Part shown: positions 1-19,123 of the stretch, piece by piece | How the letters are laid out: every line of letters begins with the position of its first letter | How positions within the stretch are numbered: the first letter of the stretch is position 1 | Assembly (NCBI GenBank): GCA_965208125.1 | Contig: OZ242320.1 | Coordinates: 4,352,001-4,416,000, forward strand | Direction: 5' to 3' | DNA length: 64,000 bases | Source of the DNA: Candidatus Latescibacterota bacterium | GTDB taxonomy: Bacteria; Latescibacterota; UBA2968 | Made by a program: the position numbers and the translations under genes | Notes under the pieces: generated by a model | What the model was told of the DNA's origin: nothing | The model's input: only the letters and a program-made list of their open reading frames with translations | Database searches by the model: none

Positions 1-196
1 CTAACCTATAAAAGCCGACGATCTGTCCCATTTCTTCTACTACATAGACGGTGTGATGGCTAATATCTTGTTGGGTATAAGTTAGATCCTGGCGGCATGC
101 TTCAAGAAAATCTGCATCGTAGTTCCAATGCGCTTTTGAGCACATTGCAAGGTTACTCAACGCTTCATTTTCGTCAGCTTTTGCAGTTCTGATCAT
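1..196 (-). CDS. GNAT family N-acetyltransferase (cassette gene, runs off window start)
   Basis: Manual translation from ATG at 196: MIRTAKADENEALSNLAMCSKAHWNYDADFLEACRQDL...VGFYRL, a typical GNAT N-terminus; follows the GTTAAATGTAAT cassette start. Confidence 0.8.
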   Translation of the reverse strand, partial: MIRTAKADENEALSNLAMCSKAHWNYDADFLEACRQDLTYTQQDISHHTVYVVEEMGQIVGFYRL

Positions 197-230
197 TGGC
201 GTGATCCCGATAATATGTATTTCTCATTAC

Positions 231-373
231 ATTTAACGGTTTATGGCTTGCGAACCGAGCAGGGGGTGGACGAAGGCCGACGGCTCTTGAAAAGAATCCC
301 CGCCAGAAAACTTATCTCGCAGGGATTTTATGGTGCAGAAATGGTTGATAATGGCAGACTAAATTTGCTACGC
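231..373 (-). repeat. Degenerate attC-like site
   Basis: Right arm CGCAAGCCATAAACC-GTTAAAT (minus) resembles the intact sites; left core is degenerate (GCTACGCGGCAT on + at 367). Confidence 0.5.
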
Positions 374-413
374 GGCATACCTACAGGAGTCAATAGTGTA
401 GAATATCAAACGA

Positions 414-587
414 TCAACCTAAATTTTCAGTCACTGGTTTGGATTCTATCAATTGATCCTGATACTCTTTCTGGCGTTCCATATAGTAAGCGACCAGTTG
501 TGCAGGATCATGGTCGAAACGTGCTGAGATACGGTGACGTATCTTCCGAATTTCGTCTATGACTGGGTCATTCTGATTCTTTTTCAT
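414..587 (-). CDS. Small protein downstream of PIN gene, putative antitoxin
   Basis: MKKNQNDPVIDEIRKIRHRIS...; overlaps the PIN gene stop. Confidence 0.65.
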   Translation of the reverse strand: MKKNQNDPVIDEIRKIRHRISARFDHDPAQLVAYYMERQKEYQDQLIESKPVTENLG

Positions 588-1062
588 TGTTGTCTCCAAG
601 TAGCTCTAAGGGCGTGACCAAGGTTGGCACATATAGCCCCAGCAAAGTATTCACGCGGCGAATGTGGCCAAATTTGTTTGCATTGGCCAAATGACGACAA
701 TTCCAGGTGGCCAAAAATTCGCATTTGTGAAAAGACGCCAGTGCCAAATGGATCGCATCACCTCCAGGATCAGCGGGCATTACCTTGTGCTGAATGTACG
801 TCTGTACGATTTCCAAAATCGCTGGCTCGATGGCCAAAAGGGGTAGGTCCCTAACAACAGCCAATCGTAGTTCCGTGCGCTCTGGAATATCGCCCATTAA
901 TTCGTCCAGAACTGCTGGACTTGTCACCAGGTCATATTGATTTGGCGCATTGTCCCACCACTCCCGAGTCCAGTCTCGTCGAGCTATAATATCAGGGGCA
1001 GTGCGTCTTTCGACGTAAAAACTGGGAATCGAAGTTTCAACATAGACACGTGGTTTGGCCAT
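568..1062 (-). CDS. PIN-domain (VapC-like) ribonuclease toxin
   Basis: VYVETSIPS, DAIHLALA and LATWNCRHLAN motifs. Confidence 0.85.
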   Translation of the reverse strand: MAKPRVYVETSIPSFYVERRTAPDIIARRDWTREWWDNAPNQYDLVTSPAVLDELMGDIPERTELRLAVVRDLPLLAIEPAILEIVQTYIQHKVMPADPGGDAIHLALASFHKCEFLATWNCRHLANANKFGHIRRVNTLLGLYVPTLVTPLELLGDNNEKESE

Positions 1063-1135
1063 ATTTATAAAATACCGCAATTAGCTTGGAAAGGGTAGAG
1101 TAAATTTGTTTGTCTACCAAACTTGGGATCTGCCA

Positions 1136-2026
1136 TCAACGCACCTGCCCCATAGGCCATTCCGAGGTCGGCCTACCTTGCCACGTTGATCGCCTGAAGA
1201 ATCGCCCGCCTGGGGGGCGGCTAAACCAGCTACTAATTGCGATTCCCCAAAAGTGCTCAAAGGACCTGTCTTTTAGATTTGCGTCACAGTATGCGTAGTG
1301 CGACAAGACCTCGTCGAGGAATGACTCTCCGTATATCCAGAACCCATAGAAATCCTTAGCGGGATCTGTGATTTCGACGTCTCCCCAGTCTATGATCCCA
1401 GTAAGTCTTCCGGTCAAGGGGTCATGATAGATGTGTTTGTACCAGAGGTCGTTGTGAGCCAGCACAGACTCGTATGAATGATCGATGCTTTCACTTCTTT
1501 CGATCCATGCTTCGAAAACATTGCGGACCTCACATTGAAGCTCGTCAGCCCGTTCAACGAATAACGCCTTCCACATCCTGCGACGCCTAACCGATGTGTC
1601 GCCCTCTTCTACGCCGAGGCTCCGTGCCTTCGCGACCGGGTAGCTGTGGAGTTCGCTGATGAAAACACCCAGCCTCTGAGCGGCCTCACTGCGGTTCGCC
1701 TTGGAAAGTCTCCAAAACCGCCACGGCGAGAGTCGAGTCCCCGAAATTGTGTGGTATCCCGCAAAATCTGACGCCTTCGGCACGAATGCATAGTCGGGAA
1801 TGGGTATTGCCTTCAGGTTGCTTCTAAGGGCATCCAGGACGGTCCGCTCCCTCGTCAGATTTGTATCCACATCGTTCTCGAACCGGAAAGCGATGCCATT
1901 GTCCAACAGAATCATTACATGATCGGGATCGGCAATGGTCTGAACTCTTCGGTAATTTGCCCACATGAGATCTGGAAAGGCGTTTCTGATTCTCTCCAGG
2001 TAGTAGCTGGAAGCCAATGGGGGCAT
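1136..2026 (-). CDS. Aminoglycoside phosphotransferase / choline kinase-like protein
   Basis: HNDLWYKHI and IIDWGD motifs; start moved to ATG 2026 because the longer ORF crosses an attC. Confidence 0.8.
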   Translation of the reverse strand: MPPLASSYYLERIRNAFPDLMWANYRRVQTIADPDHVMILLDNGIAFRFENDVDTNLTRERTVLDALRSNLKAIPIPDYAFVPKASDFAGYHTISGTRLSPWRFWRLSKANRSEAAQRLGVFISELHSYPVAKARSLGVEEGDTSVRRRRMWKALFVERADELQCEVRNVFEAWIERSESIDHSYESVLAHNDLWYKHIYHDPLTGRLTGIIDWGDVEITDPAKDFYGFWIYGESFLDEVLSHYAYCDANLKDRSFEHFWGIAISSWFSRPPGGRFFRRSTWQGRPTSEWPMGQVR

Positions 2027-2062
2027 GGGGACCTGCCAAAGAGGATTAATTGTCGCGATTTC

Positions 2063-2117
2063 CGCTAACTGTTGGGTGAAGCCCGAATGGCCGAAGCCGT
2101 GTACAGTCGTGTTATGC
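2063..2117 (-). repeat. Short attC-like site, probably internally deleted
   Basis: GCATAAC-ACGACTGTACACGGCTTCGGC...-GTTAGCG (minus); left arm resembles the site at 15123-15206. Confidence 0.65.
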
Positions 2118-2196
2118 GGTGTGCTCACTTCATTACGGCAGGAGAAACTCTGTGGAAAGGTTCCGCAAGCCTGGAGTTAGTGACCGTGCTCCCTCC

Positions 2197-2673
2197 CTAC
2201 TCACGCTCCACGAAATACTTCTTAAATCCACGACTCGTCCCATCTTGCATACCAAGGCTTCTATAGAATCCCACCTGATCTTCGTTTGGACCGCTGAGTA
2301 ACTGTAGCTTGTAGCAGCCCTTCTCTTCGGCAAGGTTAATCGCAAATGTCATCAGTTTTTTCCCAAATCCTTTGCCTCTTTGTTCGCGTGCAACAACGAC
2401 ATTCTCGATGATAGCCCAAGGGCGCCCTTCGTAAGTAAAATTCGGAACGATTGCCATTATGAGGGTGGCGACTATTTCCTTGTCCGATTCGCCCACAACG
2501 ATGAATATGTTGCCGTAGTCAGACATCTCATCAAAGATCCGGATCGACTCTTCGAGTCCGAGAGTCTTGGCCGAAAGACTATGGGGACGGCTCGTGATCT
2601 GAGGAAAGAGATTTAGCAGAGATTCGACGTCTAATCTGGTCGCAACTCGGCAAGAAATGTCTGAATGATTCAT
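2197..2673 (-). CDS. GNAT family N-acetyltransferase
   Basis: IENVVVAREQRGKGFGKKLM motif A; GCYKLQL. Confidence 0.9.
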   Translation of the reverse strand: MNHSDISCRVATRLDVESLLNLFPQITSRPHSLSAKTLGLEESIRIFDEMSDYGNIFIVVGESDKEIVATLIMAIVPNFTYEGRPWAIIENVVVAREQRGKGFGKKLMTFAINLAEEKGCYKLQLLSGPNEDQVGFYRSLGMQDGTSRGFKKYFVERE

Positions 2674-2689
2674 CCGGTGACCTTTCTCG

Positions 2690-2712
2690 ACTACGGACGT
2701 GTTAGCAGAAGT
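2690..2712 (-). repeat. Truncated attC (left core only)
   Basis: TGCTAAC-ACGTCCGT follows the map stop and matches the first bases of the 15206 site's left arm; the remainder is missing. Confidence 0.55.
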
Positions 2713-2720
2713 CAAGCCGC

Positions 2721-3240
2721 TCAGGCCGCAGTTAGCAAGATAGGCCAGCCATCGGTAATAACGACGGTATGCTCAAAATGAGCCGAAAGAGATCCGTTTG
2801 AGGTCCTCACGGTCCAACCGTCGCAATCTTCAACGGCCCGGGCTGGATGCTCGGCAATCATAGGCTCAATGGTGATCACAAGACCATTCGTAAGCGGCTT
2901 CGAATCGAACGGATTGTAGGTGTTTGCAACGATGGGATCTTCATGGATAACCCGACCTACCCCGTGCCCCGCAAGCTCATTGACAACCCAGAATCCTTGT
3001 CGTTTCACCTCGTGCTCTACGGCATGACCGATGCAATTGATCGGTTTGTTTGCACGAGCTACGGCCACCGCCTTTTCGAATGCCGTACGAGCACATCGAC
3101 ACAATCTATCGGCTTTCGCGGAATATGGAGGAATCGGGATGGTGATTGCTGCATCTGCAATGTAGCCATTCAGTTCAGCGGTGACATCCAGGCTTACAAT
3201 GTCACCCTGTTCCAGCACTCGATCACCCAGAATACCGTTT
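2721..3240 (-). pseudogene. map: N-terminally truncated type I methionine aminopeptidase
   Basis: GDIVSLD, DAAIT, GHGVG.IHE, TIEPMI, SAHFEHT motifs; begins at NGILGDR (cf. HGIP), so the N-terminal third is missing. Confidence 0.8.
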
Positions 3241-3255
3241 TGAAGGTGATAACTT

Positions 3256-4587
3256 TCAATATTTTAGTTTTATTATTTTATTTGCTTCTCGGAGACCGCT
3301 TAAAAAAGCTCCGTGTACCGTTCCTCTATAGTCAAAAATAGTGTGTTCACCAGCAAAAAATACTTTATTGCCAATGGGTTCTTCAAACACCTCAAAATCT
3401 GAACTTCTAGAACCACTAGCAACAAATGAGTAGGCGCCGAATGAATACGGGTTTTCGTTCCATTTTGTTCTTAACATATGAGTTGGGTGAGGTATGTCGT
3501 TTCCATAAATCCTTTTAAGATGTAACATAATTTCTTTGATAATCTGTTCATTTGTCATTGTCTCGGTTTGTTTAGAGTAGTCACCAAAAGCAAAAGTCAT
3601 TAACGCATTGGCATCTGCAAACTTTTTTACATTTAAGAAGTAATTGAATTTTCCTTTTGTCTCGGGTGTATAGCCAATATATTGTAGATCTTCTTCCCAA
3701 AATATATCGTCCCAGACTAAAAGAAATTTATTTACTGTACCCATCTTCAGGTTGTTGATGGCGTTTTGGATTTTATTGGGTAAGGCTGGCGTGAATTGTA
3801 TTACGTTCTTCTTGAGTACACCTAAAGGCACAGTAACCAAAACTATATCTGCTGTATAGTTACCATTAGTTGTTTGAATAGAAACCTTATCTTTAGAATA
3901 GTCAATATCTACGACTTTTGTGTTTAATCGAACATCAATGTCCTGGGCTAAATAATTGGTTATATGGTCGTAACCATTTGTAATGATAACATCTTTGCCC
4001 TTAAAAGCTTCATCATCATCAAAATCTAATGAGGACAGCTTGTAAATATCTCCTCCAGTATCAAATTCTAAAAAGGCTGATAGCATATAAGTCCAAAGTC
4101 TTTGATTTTTGTATTGAGGATATTTTTTATAGAAAATATCTGCAAAACTCTGGTCTCTATTACCTGCCAAATTCTCTAAAATGTCGTTGTACTTATCTTC
4201 TGCTGCGTCTAGTTTTTTAGGGATATATTCAGAACCATCTATGTCAAAAACTTTAACATGGAAATCGTCTGTAAAAAAGGTTTTAGCTCCTGACGCATTT
4301 GCAAGTTTAGTAATAGGGTTTTTTATAGGACCGTGAATCCAACTTGCTCCTTCGTCAAAGGCTACTCCAAGACTTCTATCTGTTTTTAATCGTCCGCCAA
4401 CTTTCTCTTGTGCTTCTAAAACAATAGGATTAAATCCATTTTTCTTTAGTTGATTAGCAGCACTTAAACCTGAAATTCCCGCTCCAATGATGATGACGTT
4501 CTTTTTGACCTGTTTGTTTCTATTTGGACTTAGAACGCTACAGGACGAAATGGCAAAAATAAAGAAAAGTAATAATATTTTTTTCAT
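3256..4587 (-). CDS. Flavin monoamine/polyamine oxidase family lipoprotein
   Basis: Lipoprotein-like signal MKKILLLFFIFAISSC; GAGISG, EAQEKVGGR and FAGEHT...GTVHGAFLSG motifs; markedly AT-rich. Confidence 0.9.
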   Translation of the reverse strand: MKKILLLFFIFAISSCSVLSPNRNKQVKKNVIIIGAGISGLSAANQLKKNGFNPIVLEAQEKVGGRLKTDRSLGVAFDEGASWIHGPIKNPITKLANASGAKTFFTDDFHVKVFDIDGSEYIPKKLDAAEDKYNDILENLAGNRDQSFADIFYKKYPQYKNQRLWTYMLSAFLEFDTGGDIYKLSSLDFDDDEAFKGKDVIITNGYDHITNYLAQDIDVRLNTKVVDIDYSKDKVSIQTTNGNYTADIVLVTVPLGVLKKNVIQFTPALPNKIQNAINNLKMGTVNKFLLVWDDIFWEEDLQYIGYTPETKGKFNYFLNVKKFADANALMTFAFGDYSKQTETMTNEQIIKEIMLHLKRIYGNDIPHPTHMLRTKWNENPYSFGAYSFVASGSRSSDFEVFEEPIGNKVFFAGEHTIFDYRGTVHGAFLSGLREANKIIKLKY

Positions 4588-4610
4588 AGAGATTGGTCCT
4601 AATGGCACAC

Positions 4611-4687
4611 AACTACGAGATTGACGAACAGTTACGATAATACGTACCAAATCTATGTATCTTCGACCTTGCGGAAATTCTTCCCTT
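4611..4687 (-). repeat. Second copy of the attI-like site
   Basis: 67/77 identical to 15970-16046; similarity stops at the GTT core. Confidence 0.8.
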
Positions 4688-4711
4688 TATTTCGTGCTTC
4701 TAACCATTGCT

Positions 4712-5692
4712 TTAGCGAACGTTGGCTCTCTCCTGAAGGTCGGCCAGTCCATATATTTCCGACGCTAATATCCTCATTTTGCATGGGTTTGACTGCAAAT
4801 CTCGGTGGAAGTCGTAGGTCCAGTCAACGGGCCGGAATCCCATGTTCGCGTACAGTGAAAGGGCTGGACCGTTGTCTTCGTTCGTACCGATGATCGCGCT
4901 CCGGTATCCTAATTGCGAGGCGTCGTACAGGCCGCGCTGAAGTGTCAACCATCCGTAGCCCTTCCCCTGTTCTGCCTCCACAACGTCAACATCATTCACG
5001 CAGAGCCAAGGACCCTCTCCCTTCTTTACTTCAGATGTCCTGAATGGGCGGCTGAAGTACACACCAACCTCACTGGCGTTCAGAAACGATGTAACACGAA
5101 GTGCAGGCATGTCGCCATCCTCGGGCACAGTTTCAGATCGGAAATCCAGAGGGCAGGACGCGGGAATCGGTTCCTGCGAGAAGCACGGCCACTCAAGTAT
5201 TACGTGACCTCTACTACGAACGTAGCCACGTGCGGCCAAGAGCCCCTGGACGTGAGCCAGGTGATTCGACAAGCTGGCCTGGGGAAGAGATCTGAAGAAG
5301 GGAAAGTTTCTCGAGAAGATCGTGACCGAGGACGCATTGTTCTCCAATGCGTGAGACTCAACTGCGTTGAGTAGCATCTGGCCAGCTCGTCGGCATCCAC
5401 GTTTGTATCCGAGGAATCGGACAATTCCTCTGCCTGTAGGCCTCATGGTCCCGGTGTGTCCTTGCCCTACTAAGGCAAGCCCAACAACCTCGGAACCTGA
5501 AACAGCGACCAGCTTCACTTCTGGCTGGATCCTTCTGTTCTTTCTTCTCTCGTTTCCTCCAACGGCGAAATCAATTTCGTCGGGAGTAAGGGACCTGCAA
5601 TGCGGAACTCCACCAACCAGATCTGCGAAGAACGTAGCCAGGTCCCTCGCCATACTGCTGGTGTAGTTGACGGTTTCAATTCTGCGATTCAT
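4712..5692 (-). CDS. Tandem-domain GNAT acetyltransferase
   Basis: VVEAEQGKGYG and NGPALSLYANMGF motifs; N-terminal degenerate GNAT domain. Confidence 0.75.
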   Translation of the reverse strand: MNRRIETVNYTSSMARDLATFFADLVGGVPHCRSLTPDEIDFAVGGNERRKNRRIQPEVKLVAVSGSEVVGLALVGQGHTGTMRPTGRGIVRFLGYKRGCRRAGQMLLNAVESHALENNASSVTIFSRNFPFFRSLPQASLSNHLAHVQGLLAARGYVRSRGHVILEWPCFSQEPIPASCPLDFRSETVPEDGDMPALRVTSFLNASEVGVYFSRPFRTSEVKKGEGPWLCVNDVDVVEAEQGKGYGWLTLQRGLYDASQLGYRSAIIGTNEDNGPALSLYANMGFRPVDWTYDFHRDLQSNPCKMRILASEIYGLADLQERANVR

Positions 5693-5758
5693 TTTTGAAC
5701 TGACCGTTCAGTCAAATTGTGAAAACCTCAAGAGAAAGTCTAATCATCTTCGCTTGTA

Positions 5759-6283
5759 TCAGTCAACCCATTTCGTCTTTGAAGTAAAGTCTTTGATTTC
5801 TTCTTCCAGGTTCCTCAGAGATTCCTCAATTTTCTTTATTTCCGCCTCCGGTGCATCCTTAAGTCGCAAGTTTTCCAATCGAAGTTGCAGGATTTCACGC
5901 TGCGTAACATAGCCGTAGCCTTTGAGTTGAGTTACAAGATTCGGGAACCCAATATGCTGCGTGTCCCAGTCCAGGATTGTGTATTGAGCTATCTTCCTGC
6001 CTTCCACTTTAAAGGTGACAGACTTCCCTTCTGCTACCTGAGAAACGTAAATAAAGCCCCGCTTCCGAAAGCGCTCATTGTCGCTATTCTCAGCGAGCAA
6101 TCGAGTTAGTCCTTGAACTTTTCGGAAGTGTTCATCGACTCTGCTCACAGCCTTGCTGAATTTCTGGTGATTGAATTGGTCCAGCCTGACTTTCCACCAA
6201 TCCTCTGCTTGTGAAACCGTTGTTGAAAGGAGTACTGCAAGTAGGGTGAAAGCAAGAATACGATTGCCCATGTGGTCCACCAT
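5759..6283 (-). CDS. Secreted hypothetical protein with C-terminal coiled coil
   Basis: Signal peptide ILAFTLLAVLLSTTVSQA; EK-rich C-terminal helix. Confidence 0.6.
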   Translation of the reverse strand: MVDHMGNRILAFTLLAVLLSTTVSQAEDWWKVRLDQFNHQKFSKAVSRVDEHFRKVQGLTRLLAENSDNERFRKRGFIYVSQVAEGKSVTFKVEGRKIAQYTILDWDTQHIGFPNLVTQLKGYGYVTQREILQLRLENLRLKDAPEAEIKKIEESLRNLEEEIKDFTSKTKWVD

Positions 6284-6370
6284 TTTAAAGGAAGAGGGGT
6301 TCGGGTTGATCAGAAAGATTTCTGCGTCAGGTTCAAATTTGTTAATGCCTGAGATGTGAGCCTACTCACT

Positions 6371-6425
6371 GTTGTGTTATGCGGCATGCTCACTTCTTTA
6401 CGGAGGGAGAAGCTCTGTGGAAAGG
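6371..6425 (-). repeat. Cassette 3'-end element with left attC core, repeated at 2106-2160
   Basis: 48/55 identical to 2106-2160; contains GCATAAC (minus). Confidence 0.7.
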
Positions 6426-7783
6426 CCCCCCGAGAAACCTCTTTCTTTGATTTGCGCCACGAAGCCATTGATCTCCGCCTGACTCAAGATATCATTTCCA
6501 CTTATAATAAGCTGGCCACCCAGGTGAGCCAGGTTCTTCAGTCCTCTCAGACTTCTTAGTCGTGGATTGTTGCTGATTTCCAAATGGCCGCCAATGGATG
6601 TAAGATGCTCCAGGCCTTCCAGACTCTCCAGTTGTTCGTTCTGGCGTATGTAGAGGAAGCCTCCAATTTCCTTTAGTGCTTGCAGACCATCGAGGACGGC
6701 AAGGTTGTTGTTGGCCGTAATATGTATGCCGCGGGAGACGTACCGTAGGCTTCGCAGCCCCTGCAAGTCTCGCAGGGAGTGGTTAGATACGATCAGCAAG
6801 CGACCATCAATAGACTCGATTCTATGAAGTCCCTCCAGCGACGCCAGCTTTGGATGGCCGTCCAGGCGGAGATCCCTTGGTACAGTTTTGATTCTGTTTA
6901 GGGATGCGATGCTCTGTAGTGATTCGTTGTGGAGTATGTAAATGTCTCTGCCTACTCTCTCTACATTGAGCCCATCCAGGTTGAGCAGGTCGGGATTCCG
7001 AATAAGCTTCAGGTCCCGCGCTACATTGGTGATCGTCTCACATTGGGTAATGCCATGAAGACCATCGCACCGGAAGATGCATAGATCACCGTATGTGGCA
7101 GCCAGACGATTATGCGATATGTCCTTCTCCTGGAGGCCTGGCGATAGGTGGGAAAGGATTGTCGTCAAGTATTCAGGCCATTGATGGTCGGTCATATCGA
7201 TTCTGCATACTCGGACGTCCAGCTTGCCAATTAACTCATCCGTCATCTCTCGAAACGCGGTATAGAGTTGGGCGTAGCCAGCGAATCCTCTCCACCCATT
7301 CCTCTTAGCCCGAGCCCGTGTGGTGACCTTGAGGTTGATCTGGGTATTCTCCCAGCGATTTCCCCGGTCATCACAGGTACGTCGCAGGAAACTCGGCACG
7401 TCAGACTGCATCAGATAAACCACAGTCGGGTTGAGTTGCGAAACTGCATTAATGACTCCTCGAACGTAGTTCTCGATTGTGACGGGTTCAACGTCGTTGA
7501 AGAACAGCTCTGCCGTATTGCGATGAAATAGCTGGCCATCGAGGACGGTGACCGAATCGTTCTGCGCTCTTGAGGCGGTGAAGTCTCGCCATCTTTCCAG
7601 ACTCTCCTCTATCTGGCAGGCCTCGCCTTGCCACTCCATCCGAGTTGGATGATTTGGATCCTTCTCATGAATATGTGCGGTTGGTATCCCGTTTCGTTCA
7701 AGCTGCGAGCAAAGGAACTCTGCTGTATTGGTCTTCCCGGAGCCAGGGATTCCTTCCACAAAGATCAACTTGGTGTTCAGCAA
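6398..7783 (-). CDS. P-loop nucleotide kinase-like domain fused to receptor-L/leucine-rich repeats
   Basis: IFVEGIPGSGKT Walker A; repeated LxxLxGLxxLxxIGGxLxIxxN units; TTG start after GGAGG. Confidence 0.7.
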   Translation of the reverse strand: MLNTKLIFVEGIPGSGKTNTAEFLCSQLERNGIPTAHIHEKDPNHPTRMEWQGEACQIEESLERWRDFTASRAQNDSVTVLDGQLFHRNTAELFFNDVEPVTIENYVRGVINAVSQLNPTVVYLMQSDVPSFLRRTCDDRGNRWENTQINLKVTTRARAKRNGWRGFAGYAQLYTAFREMTDELIGKLDVRVCRIDMTDHQWPEYLTTILSHLSPGLQEKDISHNRLAATYGDLCIFRCDGLHGITQCETITNVARDLKLIRNPDLLNLDGLNVERVGRDIYILHNESLQSIASLNRIKTVPRDLRLDGHPKLASLEGLHRIESIDGRLLIVSNHSLRDLQGLRSLRYVSRGIHITANNNLAVLDGLQALKEIGGFLYIRQNEQLESLEGLEHLTSIGGHLEISNNPRLRSLRGLKNLAHLGGQLIISGNDILSQAEINGFVAQIKERGFSGGLSTELLPP

Positions 7784-7888
7784 TGCAGCCTCCGTGATGG
7801 CTGTAGTGTTCTGCCCAAAACGGCCTCTCACGAGCTTGTTGGCTCGATTACATAAACACCAGAACGGATGCAGTTCTATGTGGACCTG

Positions 7889-9576: not shown

Positions 9577-9717
9577 GTATTCCTTAGAGATTTTTCAGGT
9601 TGGTCGATTTGGTGAAAACTCGAAGAATCAGAAAAGTTCGAGAATATGATGGGGAGTGGGTTCTGTTTTTGTTTTTGCACGCTAAAGGGTTTTTCTGGGT
9701 GGTGTTGGGGCGATTGC

Positions 9718-9857
9718 CCATAACGTCTCGCCGGTTGCCGATGTGGCCGTGATCAGTTAAACAAATCGCTGCTTTTACAATCAGGAAACACAAAGCTTCA
9801 CGAGCCATTTGGGTCGGAGCAACCGCAGGGAGCGGAGCCTGCAACTTGATGTTAACT
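9718..9857 (-). repeat. attC-like site (140 bp)
   Basis: AGTTAAC...CCGGCGAGAC-GTTATGG (minus); left end GTTAACTGC (+) matches the start of its own cassette at 12226. Confidence 0.8.
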
Positions 9858-9906
9858 GCTGTGGCGGTGCCGGGCTGCATTTGCCAGGACAGCAAATGCG
9901 GCTTCG

Positions 9907-12210
9907 TCAGGAACATCCGAGGTGTTCATCAAACCAAGCGACAATGCGGTTCCAGTAGTCCACTTGATTGGAGTATTCCCACTCACTTGGGGCATGTCTT
10001 TCGCCTTCGTACTTTGCATACACCACCTCTTTTCCAAGACGACGAAGGCCAACAAATATCTCATCGGCCAGAAACGAAGGTACCGCATAATCGACAGCTC
10101 CGTGGATAATAAAAAGTGGCGTTTGTACCCTATCGAGGTAGAATACGGGTGAATTCTCGATATACCGATCCCGAAATTGCCAGGGGGTGCCGCCCATTCT
10201 ACCTTGGCCTTCCTCTGCCCACGGGAGTCCATAAGTTGATCCATCTTTTCTCATTGCCCCATACGCGCCCAGTAAATTACCTTGCGCTGCACTGGCAACG
10301 GCTGCCTTAAAGAGTGTTGACTGAACAATCAACCCCAGTACGCAATATCCGCCATAGCTGTGACCCATTATCCCAAGACGATCAGGATCGGCAATCCCCA
10401 TCTCAACTGCTTTGTTTACACCCGGAAGCACGGTCTTGGCAAGGTCTTGCATCGGGGTTCCCACTTGAAGGGGCGCATCAGGAGAGAGAACTGCGTATCC
10501 TCGTGTGGCGAGCAGCTGTAGGTTATCAACTCCAGAGCCTTCTAGGCCGAACGTATTTAGGTTGTTCGACCCCCACCTGCCACCATACACGCGAACTACA
10601 AGTGGATACCGTCTTCCTGATTCATAGTTGGGCGGAAGCAACAACGCACCCCGTAGCCTCTGGCCATCGGCACTTCTCCATTCGATGAGACGACTCGCTC
10701 CCATGCTAGTCGCGTCAAGCAACGGATTAAGGCAAGTTAATCGTCTTGGATTCTGGAAATCAACGTCTGAGATCCAGATATCCTCGCTATGCTGAGCACC
10801 CTGTTTTATGTAAGCCACACGCTGCTCATCGTCAGAAATATCGATGGTATAGATGGTAGGGCGACCGCAATCCGCATCCTCTTCAAAAAGTCGTGTTAAC
10901 TGTCCCGTAGTCAGGTCAACTTTGTAGAATCCAATGTGTCTGGTTTCATCATCCCGTGTAATCAGAAACAGTGATTGACCTCCATCTGGCGACCAGAAGC
11001 GTCCCCCTTCCGCAGGAGAAACCACTTCCATTATTTCTCCACCTGAAATACGTGTAATATGCGTCGCCGTTGCATCAGGTACAGAGATGCGCCATAAAGC
11101 ATCAGAAACGAGGCAATAGAGGTTTTGTCCCTTGGAGTCCCATAAGGGAGCACGATAAACATGGTAAAAATTGGGATGTGGTTCCTTAGTCAAGTTTCGT
11201 GGCTCACCTCCGCTGGCAGACACAACGAAACAATCTCCGTCTGATATATAACTGAGTAGCTGCCCATCGGGAGACCAGCTGACGGAAATTGCGCGCTTTT
11301 GTTGAATATCTGTTGCAAAGACTTGAGAGCGAGTATCAGACAGAGAGACAACGATGAGTTTATTCTCCAAGATTGTAAATGCAATGTTCATACCATCTGG
11401 AGATATCCAGTAGCCGAGGACTTTCATTCGGTGTACGATACGTTGCACCTCTCCATTGGAAACATCGATCAAGGCAAGATCAGAAAGGTAAATATTCGTG
11501 ACCTCAATTTCTTGCATGTTGTCCTGCTGTTGTCCCACGTCATCTCCCTGCTTTGTGGCTTCGGGTGAGCGGTAGACAGCGACTGAGGGCTGATCTGCTT
11601 CTTTTTGATCATCCTTCGGCAATGGAGGACCCATAAAAAGACTGCAAGCTTCTTCAAGCGTCATCCTCTGCGGCAGGATTTTGCAGAGAATTTTCTGACT
11701 ATCCGGTGTCCAACGGACAATTTCGGAACCGTAATAAGGACGTACAATAGCGTCAGATACTTGCCTCAATGTATCGGATGACTTTTCCCACACCCAAAGC
11801 TGTGCTTGGCCATTCTGATCTGAATAAAAGGCAAGATAGTTTCCATTGGGGGACCATACCGGGCCCCAGCCATTACCTTTGCCTTCTGTCAAGCACCTTG
11901 ACTCACCAGATATAGAATTGGTGACCCAGACCTCACAACCAATCCTCAATCTTGGCATGCCTGAGCGACTAAAAAAGCTATATCTTTCATCGCCTGTTTT
12001 CTCCTTTTTTCGAGGGTTTTGGACTGTGTAGGCAACCCACTCGCCATCTGGAGAAAGGTCGATAGGTGTTTGTGGAGAAAAAGAGAGCGACGAAAGTACA
12101 TCTTCAGTTTCTATGTGCATCCATTTCTCCTTACAATAACTGATAGCCTCCACAACAGAGGTTTCTCTTTTGAGGAGGCGCCTTCCTGGCGCCTCCTGGT
12201 TTTCCGGCAC
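9907..12210 (-). CDS. S9 family prolyl oligopeptidase / dipeptidyl peptidase
   Basis: WSPDG beta-propeller repeats; GHSYGG nucleophile, HGAVD and GERH motifs. Confidence 0.9.
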   Translation of the reverse strand: MPENQEAPGRRLLKRETSVVEAISYCKEKWMHIETEDVLSSLSFSPQTPIDLSPDGEWVAYTVQNPRKKEKTGDERYSFFSRSGMPRLRIGCEVWVTNSISGESRCLTEGKGNGWGPVWSPNGNYLAFYSDQNGQAQLWVWEKSSDTLRQVSDAIVRPYYGSEIVRWTPDSQKILCKILPQRMTLEEACSLFMGPPLPKDDQKEADQPSVAVYRSPEATKQGDDVGQQQDNMQEIEVTNIYLSDLALIDVSNGEVQRIVHRMKVLGYWISPDGMNIAFTILENKLIVVSLSDTRSQVFATDIQQKRAISVSWSPDGQLLSYISDGDCFVVSASGGEPRNLTKEPHPNFYHVYRAPLWDSKGQNLYCLVSDALWRISVPDATATHITRISGGEIMEVVSPAEGGRFWSPDGGQSLFLITRDDETRHIGFYKVDLTTGQLTRLFEEDADCGRPTIYTIDISDDEQRVAYIKQGAQHSEDIWISDVDFQNPRRLTCLNPLLDATSMGASRLIEWRSADGQRLRGALLLPPNYESGRRYPLVVRVYGGRWGSNNLNTFGLEGSGVDNLQLLATRGYAVLSPDAPLQVGTPMQDLAKTVLPGVNKAVEMGIADPDRLGIMGHSYGGYCVLGLIVQSTLFKAAVASAAQGNLLGAYGAMRKDGSTYGLPWAEEGQGRMGGTPWQFRDRYIENSPVFYLDRVQTPLFIIHGAVDYAVPSFLADEIFVGLRRLGKEVVYAKYEGERHAPSEWEYSNQVDYWNRIVAWFDEHLGCS

Positions 12211-12219
12211 CGTTATTGC

Positions 12220-12310
12220 AGTTAACGTTTCGCCGGTTTGCGAACCCGCGCAGCGGGTTGCCGAAGGCCAAGGCGCGAACTGCGCCGCAGCGCAAACCGT
12301 GCTGTTAGAG
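12220..12310 (-). repeat. attC-like site (91 bp)
   Basis: CTCTAAC-AGCA-CGGTTTGCG...CGCAAACCG-GCGAAAC-GTTAACT with two internal hairpins. Confidence 0.9.
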
Positions 12311-12351
12311 GACGTTGTGCCTTCCCTGACACCCGACTGACACCGAGATGC

Positions 12352-13173: not shown

Positions 13174-13188
13174 TCACAATGTCCTCTA

Positions 13189-14125
13189 GGTAGTGTCTGA
13201 AAAGTCGTAAAGTATGTATTTTAGTTGCAGCATACGCCCAAGACAAAGGAGTATGATATGCAACGGAGATACGAACTGAGCGACGACGAATGGCATCTGA
13301 TCCAAGACTTGTTTCCACCGCCGAAGAAGATGGGTCGTCCCCGTCGAGATGATCGTACATTATTCAACGGGGTCTTCTGGATATTGTGTTCAGGTGCAGC
13401 TTGGCGCGACCTACCAGAACGATATGGTCCTTGGCAGACAGCCTTTGATCGATTCTGCAAATGGAAACAGGATGGCACTTTTGATCGCATTGTAGAAAAA
13501 TTGCATCTCAAATTGGATGAAGATGGCCTTTTAGATTATGCGACCTGGATGATGGATGCAACCCATATTCGAGCCACACAAGCCGCAGCAGGGGCGAAAA
13601 AAAAAGGGTAAAGAGGGTGAAGAAGAGCCCCCAGACCACGCTTTAGGACGCTCTCGTGGCGGTTTGACCACGAAAATCCATCTTCTTTGCGATGCAGTCG
13701 GGCATCCTTTAGCAGTGGACCTGCTCCCTGGCAACCAGTCAGAATCCACACAGGCTGAAAGGCTGTTATCAAAGGTACGCATACCCACCAAACAAGGACG
13801 TCCAAGAAACCGACCTCAGTATCTGGTGGCTGATAAATCTTATGATGTCTCACGCATCAGAGTCTATCTACGCAAACGGGGTATCAAGGCTGCTATCCCA
13901 AACAAGGCGATTCCTAAAGGCAGAAAACGGCGTAAGAGAGGACCAAGGCCAAAGTGTGATAAAAGATTATATGCCAAACGCAATATCGTAGAGCGTCTCT
14001 TTGGTTGGCTCAAACACTGCCGACGGATTGTGACTCGGTTTGAAAAAAAGGCGACTCATTTTCTCACTATGGTCAAGCTGGCCTGCATCAGACAACTCTT
14101 CAAAGCTTACTTTTCAGACACTACC
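13189..14125 (+). mobile_element. IS5-family (IS427-like) insertion sequence, 937 bp
   Basis: 17-bp TIR GGTAGTGTCTGAAAAGT / ACTTTTCAGACACTACC; TA duplication at 13187-13188 and 14126-14127. Confidence 0.92.
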
Positions 14126-14128
14126 TAA
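13258..14128 (+). CDS. IS5-family transposase in two frames, split at an A9 run (13597-13605)
   Basis: OrfA WRDLPERYGPW and MDAT; OrfB LGRSRGGLTTKIH, ADKSYD, RNIVERLF. Confidence 0.9.
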
Positions 14129-14220
14129 CGTTTCGCCGGTTTGCGAACCCCGAGCTTGTCGAGGGGTTGCCGAAGGCCAAGGCGCGACCAGCGCCGCAGC
14201 GCAACACCGTGCTGTTAGAC
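14123..14220 (-). repeat. attC-like site with right core rebuilt by the IS end
   Basis: Nearly identical to 12220-12310; GTCTAAC...GGCGAAAC-GTTAGGT. Confidence 0.9.
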
Positions 14221-15105
14221 GACGTGCCCTGCCATTCTCTCGAGTGAGTTCCGGGCTATCCGTTCTATCTCCTCCCCTGGTAACAAAGCAATGTCTTCGA
14301 AATCCACCACCTTTTCTAATGAGCGGATTACTTCCCGTCCAAGGAAGTGGCCACATCCACTGCGCCCCTTTATGCTGAACCAAGAGCCGAAGAATGAATT
14401 CACTGGCTGATCCCCATCTACCAGTTTCAGAAATTCGGTAGCAAGCCAGGCTTTGTTTGACGTGCACCAGGCGAGCCAATTCTCCTCGCCATATTGTTCA
14501 TGCCATGAATCGTCACCAAATACAATTTGCTCGCTACGGACCGCAAATCCCTCGCGATAAAGCTGCCAAAAAGGCCCCTTACCAGACGGTAAACCGCTTC
14601 GTTTGCGGCGCTGTATGTGGAGAAGATGGCCCAACTCGTGGGCAGTGAGGCCGGTCAGCGCCTTCTCTGTAGTGTAGCCACATTCAGCAATGTTCTCTAA
14701 TCCGAAGAGGCAAGCAGACCTCCCTCCAAGGCTAGTGGCCCATCCCGCGCCGCAACCAATTCCCACATAGATCATGAAGAGAACGTCAAAATCCAGATCA
14801 AGAGACTCCTGTGCCCTGCGGTATACTTTATCTATACAGGTTAACAATACAGCTCTCGCCTTTCCCATGGACGGCAACCGCTCCTGCAGATATGGGAAAA
14901 CTTTATCTTTTCCAATCGCGCGCCACCCCCCTTCCTGGCCAATGTAATCCTTTTGCTGTTTTTCGAGCAGTTCGGGCCACTGTGACATGTATTCAGTGGC
15001 CCAAAGCTCCAACTGCGTCTCAAGCGGTTTCACATGGACGGCCTCCCAAAAGGAGAGGAAAGCAGGAAACGTATCAACGATCTCGCACTGTGCCATCTTT
15101 AACAT
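14215..15105 (-). CDS. Putative zinc metallopeptidase (DUF2268-like)
   Basis: AHELGH HExxH motif followed by EGFA; its stop TAA lies inside the attC core. Confidence 0.65.
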   Translation of the reverse strand: MLKMAQCEIVDTFPAFLSFWEAVHVKPLETQLELWATEYMSQWPELLEKQQKDYIGQEGGWRAIGKDKVFPYLQERLPSMGKARAVLLTCIDKVYRRAQESLDLDFDVLFMIYVGIGCGAGWATSLGGRSACLFGLENIAECGYTTEKALTGLTAHELGHLLHIQRRKRSGLPSGKGPFWQLYREGFAVRSEQIVFGDDSWHEQYGEENWLAWCTSNKAWLATEFLKLVDGDQPVNSFFGSWFSIKGRSGCGHFLGREVIRSLEKVVDFEDIALLPGEEIERIARNSLERMAGHVV

Positions 15106-15122
15106 CTTGACCTCGGCATGTC

Positions 15123-15206
15123 GTCTAACGTTTTCGCCGTGTCCGAACCGCGAAGCGGTTGCGCGAAGGCGCCTCAGCGCCGAAGCCGGGCACGGACGTG
15201 TTACGC
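15123..15206 (-). repeat. attC-like site (84 bp)
   Basis: GCGTAAC-ACGT-CCGTGCCCG...CGGACACGG-CGAAAAC-GTTAGAC. Confidence 0.9.
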
Positions 15207-15256
15207 GCTGTGCTGCTACTGGCCCTCACCAAGGCAGTTCCGTCAAGTCTCATACT

Positions 15257-15913
15257 TCACGAATACATCGACAGATCATCCCAGTCCGGCCATAGCGTCG
15301 GTCGAGTTAATTTCGGATCGGGATGCCAGTCTTCCCACTCGGCAGAGAACGGACCCAAGTTCTGCTCAATCTCCTCAACTGCCCGCTGGCCTTCTGCATA
15401 GATCGCCTCAGCATCTTCGGCACTCACTCTACCGTCCTGCATACACAGCTCGAGTTCGTCCTCGTTTTTCCACCTCCACTCTCGGTTTGGCTCGACGAGA
15501 ATATCAAGCTGATGGTCCCTCAAGTCGAAACCCAACCGTGTACGCGTCAGCTCGCTCTGCATGTTTACGTACCACCCTAAGAACTCACGCTCTCTTGACC
15601 ATCTGACCCACGTCGCCCGTTGCTGATGGGGGTTGACGACGATCAATAGCTCAGCCCATTGCCAAGTCGAATCCTGAAGCGCCCAGTTGTTCTTGGTCCA
15701 CCGACGTGGCGTCCCAGGCGTGTGGTTTATTAGCTCCGCCTTCTTTGAAGGTGTATTCAGTGGGAGCCAAAGGACGATCTGGATATCAGAATCTTCGACT
15801 ACGGTGACAGGCTTCACATCGATGATTTGCCCATGTTCATCAGTCTCTCGATAAAGAATGGATTCACCGCGGCTAAATATGTTGGCTCCTTGGTACATTT
15901 GGGACTTCCTCAC
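15257..15913 (-). CDS. DUF402 domain protein (first cassette)
   Basis: FLGWYVNMQ, DHQLDILV, WRWKNEDEL motifs. Confidence 0.85.
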   Translation of the reverse strand: MRKSQMYQGANIFSRGESILYRETDEHGQIIDVKPVTVVEDSDIQIVLWLPLNTPSKKAELINHTPGTPRRWTKNNWALQDSTWQWAELLIVVNPHQQRATWVRWSREREFLGWYVNMQSELTRTRLGFDLRDHQLDILVEPNREWRWKNEDELELCMQDGRVSAEDAEAIYAEGQRAVEEIEQNLGPFSAEWEDWHPDPKLTRPTLWPDWDDLSMYS

Positions 15914-15965
15914 ACGGTACAGCCAGAAGATCCTATCAGCCTCGAAGTACCCGCAATGGCATGGC

Positions 15966-16075
15966 GCGTAACTACGGGATTAACGAACAGTTACGGTAAT
16001 ACATACCAAATCTATCTATCTCCGCACGTGCGGGAATTCTTCCCTTCAAAGGTTGTATCCCGAACATGTTCGGGA
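15966..16075 (-). other. attI-like recombination site overlapping the recombinase 3' end
   Basis: GTTACGC core where cassette 1 begins (complement at 15200); not an attC palindrome; conserved second copy at 4611. Confidence 0.75.
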
Positions 16076-16842
16076 ATGCTTCCTATGGAGGCATCATTTC
16101 TATTCAGAACCCGCCTCCTTTCCTCCATCAACGCATCCAACGGACTCTGGATCTTTGCGATATCCCGATTTGTCACCCGCGTATAAATCTGGGTGGTCTT
16201 TGGACTTTTATGCCCGAGCAGTTCCTGGATATACCGAAGATCTGTTCCGTGTTCAAGCAGGTGGGTAGCAAAAGAATGCCGTAACGTGTGTACCGACACA
16301 CGCTTGTTAATCTTGGCTTTTTTATAAGCGCGGTCAAAAATTTTTTGAACCGACCGTTCAGTTAAATGCAGTCCCGGTTTGGCACCCGGAAATAGCCATG
16401 TTTGGGGTTGATATTGGCACTTGTAATCTTGCACCGCCTTCTGGGCAAATTTGGAGAGCATCGTGTACCGATCCTTCCGGCGCTTGCCTTGACGGATATG
16501 AATCAATTTTCGATCCAGGTCGATATCCTCGACCTTCAGCCGGACCACCTCACCCAGACGAAGACCTCCGGAATACGTCAGCAGCATAATCGTCTGGTGT
16601 TTCAGGTTCTTTACTGCATTGAGGAGTCGAAGTACTTCTGCCTGGCTCAACACAGTGGGCAATTTATGCTCTTTTTGAGAACGGGGCAGATTTTCAAGAG
16701 GATATTGATATTTTAACACTCGTTGGAATAGGAATTTCAGGGCACTTACACACTGATTGACGTAACTGTGAGAAGCTCCCTTTTCAAGCAGATGATACAC
16801 ATAAGCTTTATATTTTGGCGATTTTAGATGTTGATATTCCAT
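16012..16842 (-). CDS. Tyrosine recombinase, IntI-like but lacking the IntI insertion
   Basis: KLPTVLS, GLRLGE, GKRRKDR, WLFP, HTLRHSFATHLLE, QELLGH, TTQIY, SPLD; AAGGAG RBS. Confidence 0.92.
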   Translation of the reverse strand: MEYQHLKSPKYKAYVYHLLEKGASHSYVNQCVSALKFLFQRVLKYQYPLENLPRSQKEHKLPTVLSQAEVLRLLNAVKNLKHQTIMLLTYSGGLRLGEVVRLKVEDIDLDRKLIHIRQGKRRKDRYTMLSKFAQKAVQDYKCQYQPQTWLFPGAKPGLHLTERSVQKIFDRAYKKAKINKRVSVHTLRHSFATHLLEHGTDLRYIQELLGHKSPKTTQIYTRVTNRDIAKIQSPLDALMEERRRVLNRNDASIGSIPEHVRDTTFEGKNSRTCGDR

Positions 16843-19076: not shown

Positions 19077-19123
19077 ATAGTTATGTCCTTTCGAAAAGGA
19101 TGAGCGCGTGTGCCGGAATCCGT

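What the first reader, a model, noticed from the sequence alone, without database searches (positions are those of the whole stretch)
1..16842. Non-canonical integron: cassette array downstream of a co-oriented recombinase lacking the IntI insertion
Seen: about 15 unrelated minus-strand genes separated by TAAC...GTTA palindromes, starting just after the stop of a tyrosine recombinase on the same strand. Between KDRYTML and WLFP the protein has only about 20 residues. Known: classical IntI carries an extra segment here (the I2 helix region) needed for single-stranded attC recombination, and is usually transcribed away from its array. Inference: this is a distinct cassette-capture system with a short integrase. 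Integron-detection tools would probably report it as an orphan attC cluster beside an unrelated Xer-like gene.
Basis: partly seen in the sequence, partly recalled or inferred. Interest (0 to 1): 0.92.

Follow-up and report, generated by a model that had tools for sequence, protein, structure and literature searches.

The report
Decayed integron-like array, short integrase
This is the head of a chromosomal gene-cassette array whose neighbouring recombinase belongs to a family that lacks the segment thought essential for integron integrases, and relatives of that family sit at the start of similar arrays in many other genomes, although the copy here is broken.

Summary
The recombinase at 16012-16842 (-) does lack the IntI insertion: 59 residues between KDR and HxLRH, against 100 in ten canonical IntIs. 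It lies co-oriented upstream of unrelated minus-strand genes. Only four complete attC-type sites were found (9716-9860, 12218-12313, 14121-14223, 15121-15209), not about 15. The rest of the array holds degenerate sites, an IS insertion and recombinase fragments.

The window's recombinase is itself decayed. It has an in-frame 129-residue deletion and a C-terminal frameshift relative to 376-residue relatives.

- Non-IS91 members of this short family sit at the start of the same attC type in 18 of 22 assessable Latescibacterota loci.
- The same holds for 6 to 11 metagenome loci.
- A conserved palindrome plus GTTA lies beside the gene, and homology between close genomes ends exactly at that GTTA.
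- None of eight canonical-IntI loci in the phylum carries this attC type.
- The window's genome has no canonical IntI.

My reading is a fossil member of an integron variant with an insertion-less integrase. No recombination has been shown.

The parts
16012..16842 (-). Short tyrosine recombinase, a decayed copy. Catalytic motifs are kept, but residues 17-145 of the 376-aa form are deleted in frame at a 10-bp repeat. A 1-nt deletion after ...SPLDALME adds a 37-residue tail in place of the last 7 residues.
15969..16000 (-). attI-like site: ATTACCG-TAAC-T-GTT-CGTTAAT palindrome, 6 nt, then GTTA (15972-15969). Sequence conserved with relatives ends at this GTTA.
   Evidence: contig loose ends at 15969
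15257..15913 (-). Cassette 1 ORF (DUF402)
15121..15209 (-). attC-type site
   Evidence: R3 69.0 bits, E=5e-14
14215..15105 (-). Cassette 2 ORF (no Pfam family)
14121..14223 (-). attC-type site, with an IS inserted directly after its GTTA
   Evidence: R3 71.5 bits
13189..14125 (+). IS4/IS5-type insertion sequence (DUF4096 and DDE_Tnp_1 in two overlapping frames), bounded by inverted repeats GGTAGTGTCTGAAAAGT
   Evidence: one contig spans 13187-14127 at very high depth
12352..13173 (-). Cassette 3 ORF (SAM methyltransferase)
12218..12313 (-). attC-type site
   Evidence: R3 87.3 bits, E=3e-18
9907..12210 (-). Cassette 4 ORF (S9 peptidase with beta-propeller, 767 aa)
9716..9860 (-). attC-type site, long form
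   Evidence: R3 40.2 bits, E=3e-7
5692..5717 (-). 26-nt internal fragment of the recombinase gene, fused in front of ORF 4712-5692
4611..4687 (-). Second, degenerate copy of the region downstream of the recombinase gene with the attI-like site, inside the array and just before the low-GC amine oxidase gene
2061..2120 (-). Degenerate attC-like remnant (TAAC and GTTA kept, stem broken)
   Evidence: R3 12.4 bits, E=1.2
229..320 (-). Weak attC-like site after the 568-1080 cassette; its counterpart in L007 ends ...AAAACGTTA
   Evidence: R3 E=5.7
1..9576 (-). Distal, eroded part of the array. It holds a methyltransferase, a repeat protein, two GNATs, an amine oxidase, a truncated M24 peptidase, an APH-like kinase and the 568-1080 ORF. 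Intact sites are mostly missing. The array runs on beyond the window to at least genome position 4,331,835.
17102..17851 (-). Conserved backbone gene (UVR motif) that bounds the platform on the upstream side, as in L007 and L015

Best explanation
The window holds the proximal part of a sedentary chromosomal cassette array in a Latescibacterota genome. Its layout matches an integron: recombinase gene, a conserved attI-like site (7-bp inverted arms around AAC-N-GTT, 6 nt, then GTTA), then cassettes that each end in a structured TAAC...GTTA attC-type site.

The recombinase belongs to a clade of the IntI/IS91-recombinase group that never had, or has lost, the roughly 41-residue IntI insertion. I infer that intact members insert and excise cassettes by strand exchange in the GTT of the attI-like and attC sites, as IntI does, and so define an integron variant.

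In this genome the enzyme is dead. The N-terminal domain and about two thirds of the core-binding domain are deleted, and the C-terminus is frameshifted. The array is fossilising: four intact sites, an IS in one site, and remnants of attI and of the recombinase gene further in.

Shown: the anatomy, the missing insertion, the decay, the covariation in the sites, the adjacency of gene and array across genomes, and the homology breaks at GTTA. Inferred: that this recombinase catalyses the cassette exchange, and whether the site is used folded or double-stranded.
For: 1. Missing insertion. The KDR to HxLRH spacing is 59 residues in 24 of 24 short proteins where both motifs were found, 100 in 10 of 10 IntIs and 65 in one Xer. 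The TIGR02249 match is split, and the VchIntIA alignment shows the same gap.

2. Adjacency in the phylum. Of 22 assessable loci with a non-IS91 short recombinase, 18 have R2 attC hits within 10 kb that read away from the gene. Thirteen are co-oriented downstream and five are divergent upstream.

3. Adjacency outside the phylum. Six of 44 non-IS91 metagenome loci have R2 hits in the same geometry. Five more carry other attC-like repeat families downstream. None of the 36 IS91-linked loci has one.

4. The junction. Window, L007 (two copies), L008 (two), L009 and L060 share ...CCGTAAC-N-GTTCGKTAAT-N6-GTTA and then diverge. The divergent clade has TATGCGAAC-N5-GTTCGCATA-N6-GTTA and then diverges. 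BLAST homology between window and L007, and between L044 and L048, stops there.

5. Separation from canonical integrons. Canonical IntI exceeds the cut-off in 17 of 168 phylum genomes, none in the window's genus. None of 8 canonical-IntI loci has an R2 hit. With R3 and filters off, the best E on 5 of those loci is 0.22. One of them (L065) has its own array of different attCs.

6. Phylogeny. IntI, the two array-linked short clades and the IS91-linked clade are separate clades (support 100, 99, 84 and 99) on the same side of the Xer root.

7. Site structure. 93% of stem cells are paired, with compensatory changes in 10 of 15 pairs.
Against: - No recombination was observed. Everything rests on context.
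- The window's own gene is broken, so it cannot account for any recent change here.
- Only G000 and G077 of the 20 genomes of the genus have the gene at E<=1e-40.
- At least 49 of the 71 phylum genomes with R2-type sites have neither this recombinase at that threshold nor, mostly, a canonical IntI.
- Several of the genomes richest in sites hold only fragments (G056, G061, G097), only IS91-linked copies (G041) or nothing (G053).
- Four of 22 loci have no detected array (L035, L042, L043, L059).
- Copies or fragments of the gene and its site also lie inside arrays (window 4611-4687, L007, L050, L061, L105), as a mobile unit would.
- Rearrangements between window and L007 beyond the first cassettes are not all at attC sites.
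- The models R1 to R3 were trained on arrays found next to this recombinase, which biases them towards that attC type.
- Published experiments are reported to link the I2 helix to single-strand attC recombination (abstract of PMC7790495).
- Cury et al. [quoted passage not shown]
Confidence: 0.58

Rival explanations
1. The recombinase and its site form a mobile or selfish unit that targets or rides in attC arrays, as IS1111-attC elements and attC-specific group II introns do (recalled, not checked here). Some other enzyme, past or acting in trans, builds the arrays.
For: Copies and fragments of the gene plus site lie inside arrays: window 4611-4687 and 5692-5717, a second L007 copy at 19883-20051, and L013, L015, L018, L050, L061 and L105. 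The nearest sister clade is part of IS91-type insertion sequences with 3 to 6 copies per genome. At least 49 of 71 genomes with these sites lack the gene.
Against: In the window, L007 and L015 the gene sits at the border between conserved backbone and array. In 18 of 22 loci the array starts at the gene and reads away from it. No second element end was seen upstream of the gene. No other candidate enzyme is present in G000. Canonical-IntI loci carry a different attC type.
Confidence: 0.2
2. This is an ordinary CALIN: the remains of a canonical integron whose IntI was lost. The Xer-like gene lies beside it by chance or by descent within one lineage.
For: Canonical IntI exists in the phylum in 17 of 168 genomes, including a frameshifted one in the same family (G062). 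The attC architecture is classical (TAAC/GTTA boxes and an imperfect stem). Cury et al. 2016 reached this verdict for similar cases.
Against: The adjacency recurs in two separate recombinase clades, in several Latescibacterota families and in metagenome contigs of very different GC content. No IntI-type fragment was found near the array or anywhere in G000. A site conserved with the gene marks the cassette junction. R2/R3-type sites are absent from 8 of 8 canonical-IntI loci.
Confidence: 0.12
3. The TAAC...GTTA elements are not recombination sites. They would be a repeat family with another role, such as terminators or REP-like elements, that happens to follow genes.
For: The inner part of the sites is unusually conserved in sequence (CGCUUCGG...GGCCUUCGGCAAC...). 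Hairpins after genes can terminate transcription.
Against: The end boxes are invariant and the stem between them covaries. The sites occur in one orientation in arrays of unrelated genes. Gene content differs between close genomes exactly at GTTA. Contigs from other samples run on unlike exactly past the GTTA at 15126, 14126 and 15969 (contigs only).
Confidence: 0.04

Closest known systems
Sedentary chromosomal integrons, including the 'inverted integrase' group in which intI is co-oriented with the array (mentioned in Cury et al. 2016, passage read)
   Same: The platform order is recombinase, attI-like site, cassettes. attC-type sites have TAAC/GTTA boxes and an imperfect covarying stem. The junction lies at GTT. 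Cassette genes are unrelated and mostly of accessory type (GNAT, methyltransferase, kinase). The sites form a sequence-homogeneous family, as in sedentary integrons.
   Different: The recombinase has no IntI insertion (59 against 100 residues between KDR and HxLRH) and falls outside the IntI clade. The co-oriented clade carries an extra N-terminal alpha/beta domain of about 70 residues with no Pfam family. The sites have a fixed 1-nt by 5-nt asymmetric spacer, and a non-conserved single bulge in 56 of 101 sites. The canonical array L065 shows a recurrent bulged G (five of eight sites read by eye).
CALIN (cluster of attC sites lacking an integron integrase; Cury et al. 2016, Neron et al. 2022, passages read)
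   Same: By the tool's definition this locus would very probably be called a CALIN: at least 2 attC sites and no protein matching both IntI profiles.
   Different: A specific recombinase family and a conserved junction site head the cluster here and in relatives. That offers a cause other than loss of IntI. IntegronFinder itself could not be run.
'Integron-like' subgroup of simple tyrosine recombinases, which includes insertion-less recombinases of IS91 and IS3 elements (Smyshlyaev et al. preprint, passage read)
   Same: The window's protein groups with IntI and the IS91-linked recombinases relative to XerC/D and lacks the IntI helices, as that paper describes for the IS-borne members.
   Different: No IS91 Y2 transposase follows the gene, and none is found anywhere in G000. 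The gene instead heads an attC array. In the passages I read, that paper links the short members to IS91 and IS3, not to cassette arrays.
XerC/XerD chromosome dimer resolvases
   Same: Same fold and catalytic motifs, and similar length between the motifs (59 against 65 residues).
   Different: The scores are far below the XerC and XerD cut-offs (174.9 against 335; 166 against 329.6). The genome has two other Xer-type genes. The gene is sporadic, found in 32 of 168 genomes, and is not a core gene.

Membership tests
Integron (IntI-based, as defined for IntegronFinder) | Integrase carries the IntI-specific additional domain near patch III (intI_Cterm) together with PF00589 | tested here: not met
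   PF00589 is met. TIGR02249 scores 196.9 against 265 bits and is split around profile positions about 174-235. There are 26 residues against 68 in VchIntIA, and spacing is 59 against 100. The intI_Cterm profile itself was not available.
Integron (IntI-based, as defined for IntegronFinder) | Cluster of attC sites: structured, with R''/R' boxes ...AAC/GTT... and imperfect pairing | tested here: met
   Four sites in the window with home-built models and covariation. IntegronFinder's own attC model was not available.
Integron (IntI-based, as defined for IntegronFinder) | attI site next to the integrase gene where cassettes are inserted at G/TT | tested here: inconclusive
   A conserved palindrome plus GTTA lies next to the gene, and homology to relatives ends at that GTTA. 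No recombination assay was done.
Integron (IntI-based, as defined for IntegronFinder) | Cassette promoter (Pc) in or near the integrase gene | not tested
   No promoter analysis was run. Co-orientation would allow read-through from the recombinase gene.
CALIN | At least 2 attC sites within 4 kb and no IntI nearby | tested here: met
   Sites at 15.1, 14.1, 12.2 and 9.7 kb. No IntI exceeds the cut-off in the genome. This is an operational call made without IntegronFinder.
IS91-linked tyrosine recombinase | IS91 Y2 (HUH) transposase gene directly downstream; multi-copy | tested here: not met
   tblastn with the L053 transposase finds nothing in G000. There is one recombinase copy in the genome. 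The downstream ORF is DUF402.
XerC/XerD | Score above the equivalog cut-offs; conserved core gene | tested here: not met
   174.9 against 335.15 and 166 against 329.6 bits. Present in only 2 of 20 genomes of the genus.
'Integron-like' subgroup of simple tyrosine recombinases (Smyshlyaev et al.) | Clusters with IntI and IS91/IS3 recombinases rather than with Xer | tested here: inconclusive
   In a 44-row quick tree rooted on only two Xer proteins, all short clades and IntI lie on one side (support 100). That paper's own profiles were not used.

The most novel reading that the evidence does not exclude
A second lineage of integrons exists in which an integrase without the I2/additional domain captures cassettes at a palindrome-plus-GTTA attI and at folded attC-type sites. 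One clade has an extra N-terminal domain instead. It is spread over Latescibacterota and other uncultured bacteria. It would account for part of the many 'orphan' attC clusters and would give a natural test of whether the I2 helix is really needed for attC recombination, or what an integron looked like before it was acquired.
Probability: 0.45. Interest if true: 0.9.

Novelty: new variant of a known kind. Interest (0 to 1): 0.78.

Why it matters
Integron integrases are defined, both in software and in mechanism, by their extra domain. Recombinases without it that lie next to attC sites have been explicitly set aside as 'not IntI' (Cury et al. 2016, passage read).

If the short family seen here does run these arrays, three things follow:
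1. Integron surveys undercount complete systems and overcount orphan clusters.
2. The requirement for the I2 helix in attC recombination is not universal, or these sites are handled differently, possibly as double strands.
3. The step from Xer-like or IS-borne recombinases to integrons can be studied in living intermediates.

The proteins are small and the sites are defined, so the question is directly testable in E. coli.

For this window alone the biological weight is smaller, because it is a dead copy at the head of an eroding array.

Tried and rejected
- Rfam search of 1-20000 at E<=1 gave no family.
- The repeat finder with an 8-nt seed found only one of the attC stems.
- My first fold-based scan for AAC...GTT hairpins was too noisy to use.
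- A 16-mer from the right arm of the sites occurs at 3 or fewer mismatches only three times in the array and otherwise at chance-like places. This shows that the family cannot be tracked by a plain motif.
- The RNAalifold consensus of four sites did not give the attC fold, so I supplied the structure by hand.
- My generic attC scan has low sensitivity, about 6 of 11 sites in L048, and many false hits. I used it only to see the strand-biased series in L065 and L062.
- The self-BLAST repeat search misses arrays with dissimilar sites: L065 gave one pair.
- The Atlas look-up of the N-terminal 92 residues gave only unnamed clusters at 0.84-0.85, which is lead level only.
- Foldseek of the P0001 model (mean pLDDT 76) gave VchIntIA and then XerA as best matches, with nothing specific for the N-terminal domain.
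- Read laying had only contigs. They cannot show rare excision products, and attC repeats make contigs from other places lie partly on the stretch, so I use the loose ends only as a note. The parts without cover in X1 and X3 are not interpreted.
- Literature: six accepted searches found no paper that describes cassette arrays headed by an insertion-less integrase. Supplementary figures of Cury et al. 2016 (their tree of 21 such recombinases) could not be seen and may bear on this. Subscription journals are not covered.
- I considered and rejected that the gene is XerC or XerD or an IS91 element.

Full report
**What is there.** The window is G000:C1:4352001-4416000 of a single-contig 5.75 Mb genome. 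Its nearest relatives in public collections are Candidatus Latescibacterota MAGs. From 16842 down to 1, nearly all long ORFs lie on the minus strand. Read on that strand the order is as follows.
- A conserved UVR-motif gene at 17102-17851.
- A 259-nt spacer.
- The tyrosine recombinase at 16012-16842.
- Unrelated genes: DUF402, an unknown ORF, a SAM methyltransferase, a 767-aa S9 peptidase, an unknown ORF, a second methyltransferase, a repeat protein, an unknown ORF, a GNAT, a low-GC amine oxidase, a truncated M24 peptidase, a second GNAT, an APH-like kinase and a 170-aa ORF.

**The recombinase.**
- It matches PF00589 (E=4e-43).
- Its best NCBIfam model is the integron integrase TIGR02249. The match is in two stretches and below the cut-off (196.9 against 265 bits). 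XerA, XerC and XerD models follow, all below their cut-offs.
- Against the solved VchIntIA (2a3v) the alignment breaks in the same place: 26 residues in the query against 68 in IntI.
- In a set of 44 proteins gathered here, the distance from the KDR motif to HxLRH is 59 residues in all 24 short proteins where both motifs were found by pattern (the window's included). It is 100 in all 10 IntIs so measured (class 1 IntI1 included) and 65 in one Xer.

**The copy in the window is broken.** The closest homologues are about 370-376 aa. P0001 is 92% identical over the shared part and starts with the same 16 residues. It then carries 129 residues (17-145) that the window lacks.
- At the DNA level this is a 387-nt deletion between two copies of TATGTGTATC.
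- It removes a predicted N-terminal alpha/beta domain (residues 11-71 of the model, pLDDT about 80), the linker, and residues 96-145 of the SAM-like core-binding domain (Pfam 96-173).
- A 1-nt deletion after ...SPLDALME also shifts the frame past the normal stop.
- The genome has no second copy. The only other tyrosine recombinases of this kind are two Xer-type genes.

I therefore regard the enzyme here as inactive. This is an inference from the lost DNA-binding half.

**The sites.** I built covariance models from sites recognised by eye and widened them twice.
- With filters off, the window holds four strong sites, all on the minus strand at the 3' ends of the first four cassettes: 15121-15209, 14121-14223, 12218-12313 and 9716-9860. 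Two further matches are marginal (2061-2120 and 229-320).
- In the whole genome the model finds six sites at E<=1. Four are these, one lies 18 kb beyond the window start (4333658-4333750) and one is elsewhere.
- On 101 sites from 28 sources the end boxes TAAC/GTTA are almost invariant. The 11-bp stem is paired in 91% of cells, with compensatory changes in 10 of its 11 pairs.
- Shuffled partners give 70% pairing over the whole structure and slid partners 24-39%. The alignment was fitted to the model, which favours the structure.
- The spacer between the boxes and the stem is 1 nt on the 5' side (100 of 101) and 5 nt on the 3' side (98 of 101). A single bulged base of any kind sits in the 5' arm in 56 of 101 sites.

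Downstream of 9.7 kb the sites are eroded or missing.

**Signs of decay in the array.**
- An IS4/IS5-type element (13189-14125) sits directly after the GTTA of the 14.1-kb site.
- A 77-nt copy of the region downstream of the recombinase gene, with its site, lies at 4611-4687.
- A 26-nt internal piece of the recombinase gene lies at 5692-5717.
- Another copy of the site lies at genome position 4331835-4331861.
- In three congeners (L013, L015, L018) only 80-120-nt pieces of the gene survive inside arrays. In L015 the same backbone gene is present but the recombinase gene next to it is gone.

**The junction site.** Downstream of the normal stop, about 130 nt are conserved among window, L007, L008, L009, L060 and L061. 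They end in ATTACCG-TAAC-N-GTT-CGKTAAT, 6 nt, GTTA. After this GTTA every locus continues differently.
- L007 is syntenic with the window (same backbone, 92-96% identity). BLAST homology stops within three bases of that GTTA and resumes only in scattered cassettes in another order.
- A sister clade of about 312-aa recombinases has the classical divergent layout. About 210 nt upstream of its start codon lies TATGCGAAC-N5-GTTCGCATA-N6-GTTA.
- L044 and L048 are 92% identical across the gene and that site, and unrelated beyond the GTTA.
- The bases that follow the GTTA at these junctions resemble those that follow the GTTA of the attC sites. This is expected if the crossover lies in GTT.

This is what an attI site looks like in comparative data, but it is not proof of recombination.

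**Does the family go with arrays?**
- In 168 genomes of the phylum, P0001 homologues at E<=1e-40 occur in 32.
- I fetched 27 loci with such a hit and had four from earlier calls. Five of them (L053-L057; G041 and G042, 3 to 6 copies per genome) are followed directly by an IS91 Y2 transposase and form their own clade. I set these aside as IS-borne.
- Three loci end within 1.2 kb of the gene (L040, L045, L047), and L061 holds only a fragment inside an array.
- Of the remaining 22, 18 have R2 sites within 10 kb that start at the gene and read away from it. Thirteen are co-oriented downstream (window, L007-L009, L036-L039, L041, L051, L052, L058, L060). Five are divergent upstream (L044, L046, L048, L049, L050).
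- Four have none (L035, L042 with two stop codons, L043, L059).
- L050 also has three sites on the other side pointing towards the gene.
- Of 80 metagenome loci, 36 are IS91-linked and none of these has an R2 site. Six of the other 44 have R2 sites, again in the away-reading geometry.
- Among 20 metagenome loci that I screened for internal repeats, five more carry other families of 140-190-nt xxAAC...GTTxx hairpin sites downstream of the gene. Most of the other contigs are short.

**Canonical integrons in the same phylum.**
- TIGR02249 exceeds its cut-off in 17 of 168 genomes: none in the window's genus, one frameshifted copy in its family.
- The G042 protein is 52.7% identical to IntI1 over its full length.
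- None of eight canonical or partial IntI loci has an R2 site within 10 kb. With R3 and filters off the best E on five of them is 0.22.
- One canonical locus (L065) has a divergent series of eight candidate sites from my generic scan. At least five of these are about 120-nt sites with ATAAC/GTTAT ends and a recurrent bulged G.

The two kinds of recombinase therefore go with two kinds of site. R1 to R3 were trained on arrays next to the short enzyme, so 'absent' means 'this attC family is absent'.

**Counter-evidence at genome level.**
- R2-type sites occur in 71 of 151 genomes searched, but only 22 of these have a P0001 homologue. Most arrays are therefore orphan.
- Of the 12 genomes with 17 or more scored sites, 11 have a homologue. 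That count includes three with fragments only (G056, G061, G097) and one with IS91-linked copies only (G041). G053 has none.
- This fits frequent loss of the gene, as in the window's genus. It equally fits a gene that merely visits arrays.

**Phylogeny.** A quick IQ-TREE of 44 proteins used 313 columns. The insertion columns were dropped by the fill filter, and the root was two Xer proteins of G000. It gives IntI (support 100), the divergent short clade (99), the IS91-linked clade (99) and the co-oriented clade (84) as separate groups in an unresolved fork. The co-oriented clade also holds proteins named from Dehalococcoidia and Clostridia. The short enzymes are thus not degenerate offshoots of the phylum's own IntIs. 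The order of branching, and so 'ancestral' against 'secondary loss', is open.

**Literature.** Cury et al. 2016 found 50 PF00589 proteins without intI_Cterm next to attC sites and concluded they 'are not IntI' (passage). Smyshlyaev et al. place insertion-less recombinases of IS91 and IS3 in an 'Integron-like' subgroup with IntI (passage). Abstracts of Escudero et al. 2016 and 2020 tie the I2 helix to single-strand recombination. Six accepted searches found no description of arrays headed by such enzymes. Supplements were closed.

Noticed in passing
window 13189-14125: An IS4/IS5-type element with a two-frame transposase sits exactly after the GTTA of an attC site. One contig of run X19 covers it at about 3500-fold word depth, so it is highly repeated in that sample.
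   Followed up: partly
window 3256-4650: An amine oxidase gene with about 39% GC in a 50% GC region is preceded directly by the degenerate copy of the attI-like site (4611-4687). It looks like a recent foreign cassette placed at an internal attI copy.
   Followed up: no
L055 and L056 (G042:C1:2158606-2160406 and 2493564-2495721): A canonical intI (one full copy, one partial) is followed about 390 bp downstream, on the same strand, by an IS91-type pair of short recombinase plus Y2 transposase. The module occurs twice, and the IS occurs a third time at 5.72 Mb.
   Followed up: partly
window 9666-9726; L007 14182-14241; L037 after the junction: A conserved cassette leader (GTTAT.GGCAATCGCCCC.ACCACCCC...) follows an attC site in two genomes and the attI-like junction in a third. 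Many cassettes start with similar C-rich leaders.
   Followed up: no
protein P0031 and window 1136-2128: In other genomes a 214-aa product joins an N-terminal piece of the APH-like cassette gene to the C-terminal half of the recombinase. This shows deletions that fuse cassettes to the recombinase gene.
   Followed up: no
P0001 residues 11-71 (model m2b445579c838): The co-oriented clade has an N-terminal beta-beta-alpha-beta-beta-alpha-beta domain with a GRRW...KCW motif and no Pfam family. The divergent clade lacks it.
   Followed up: partly
phylum genomes G053, G128, G134, G136, G141, G146: Complete or near-complete genomes with 12-20 R2-type attC sites show neither a canonical IntI nor the short recombinase at the thresholds used.
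   Followed up: no
window 1-17000 against the rest: GC skew is negative across the array and turns positive at about 17-18 kb, where the backbone begins. This probably reflects the uniform gene orientation of the array.
   Followed up: no
runs X1-X3 and X19-X24: Runs labelled sponge or marine metagenome hold parts of the stretch. Contigs break at the attC sites and at 15969 and continue with unrelated sequence.
   Followed up: partly
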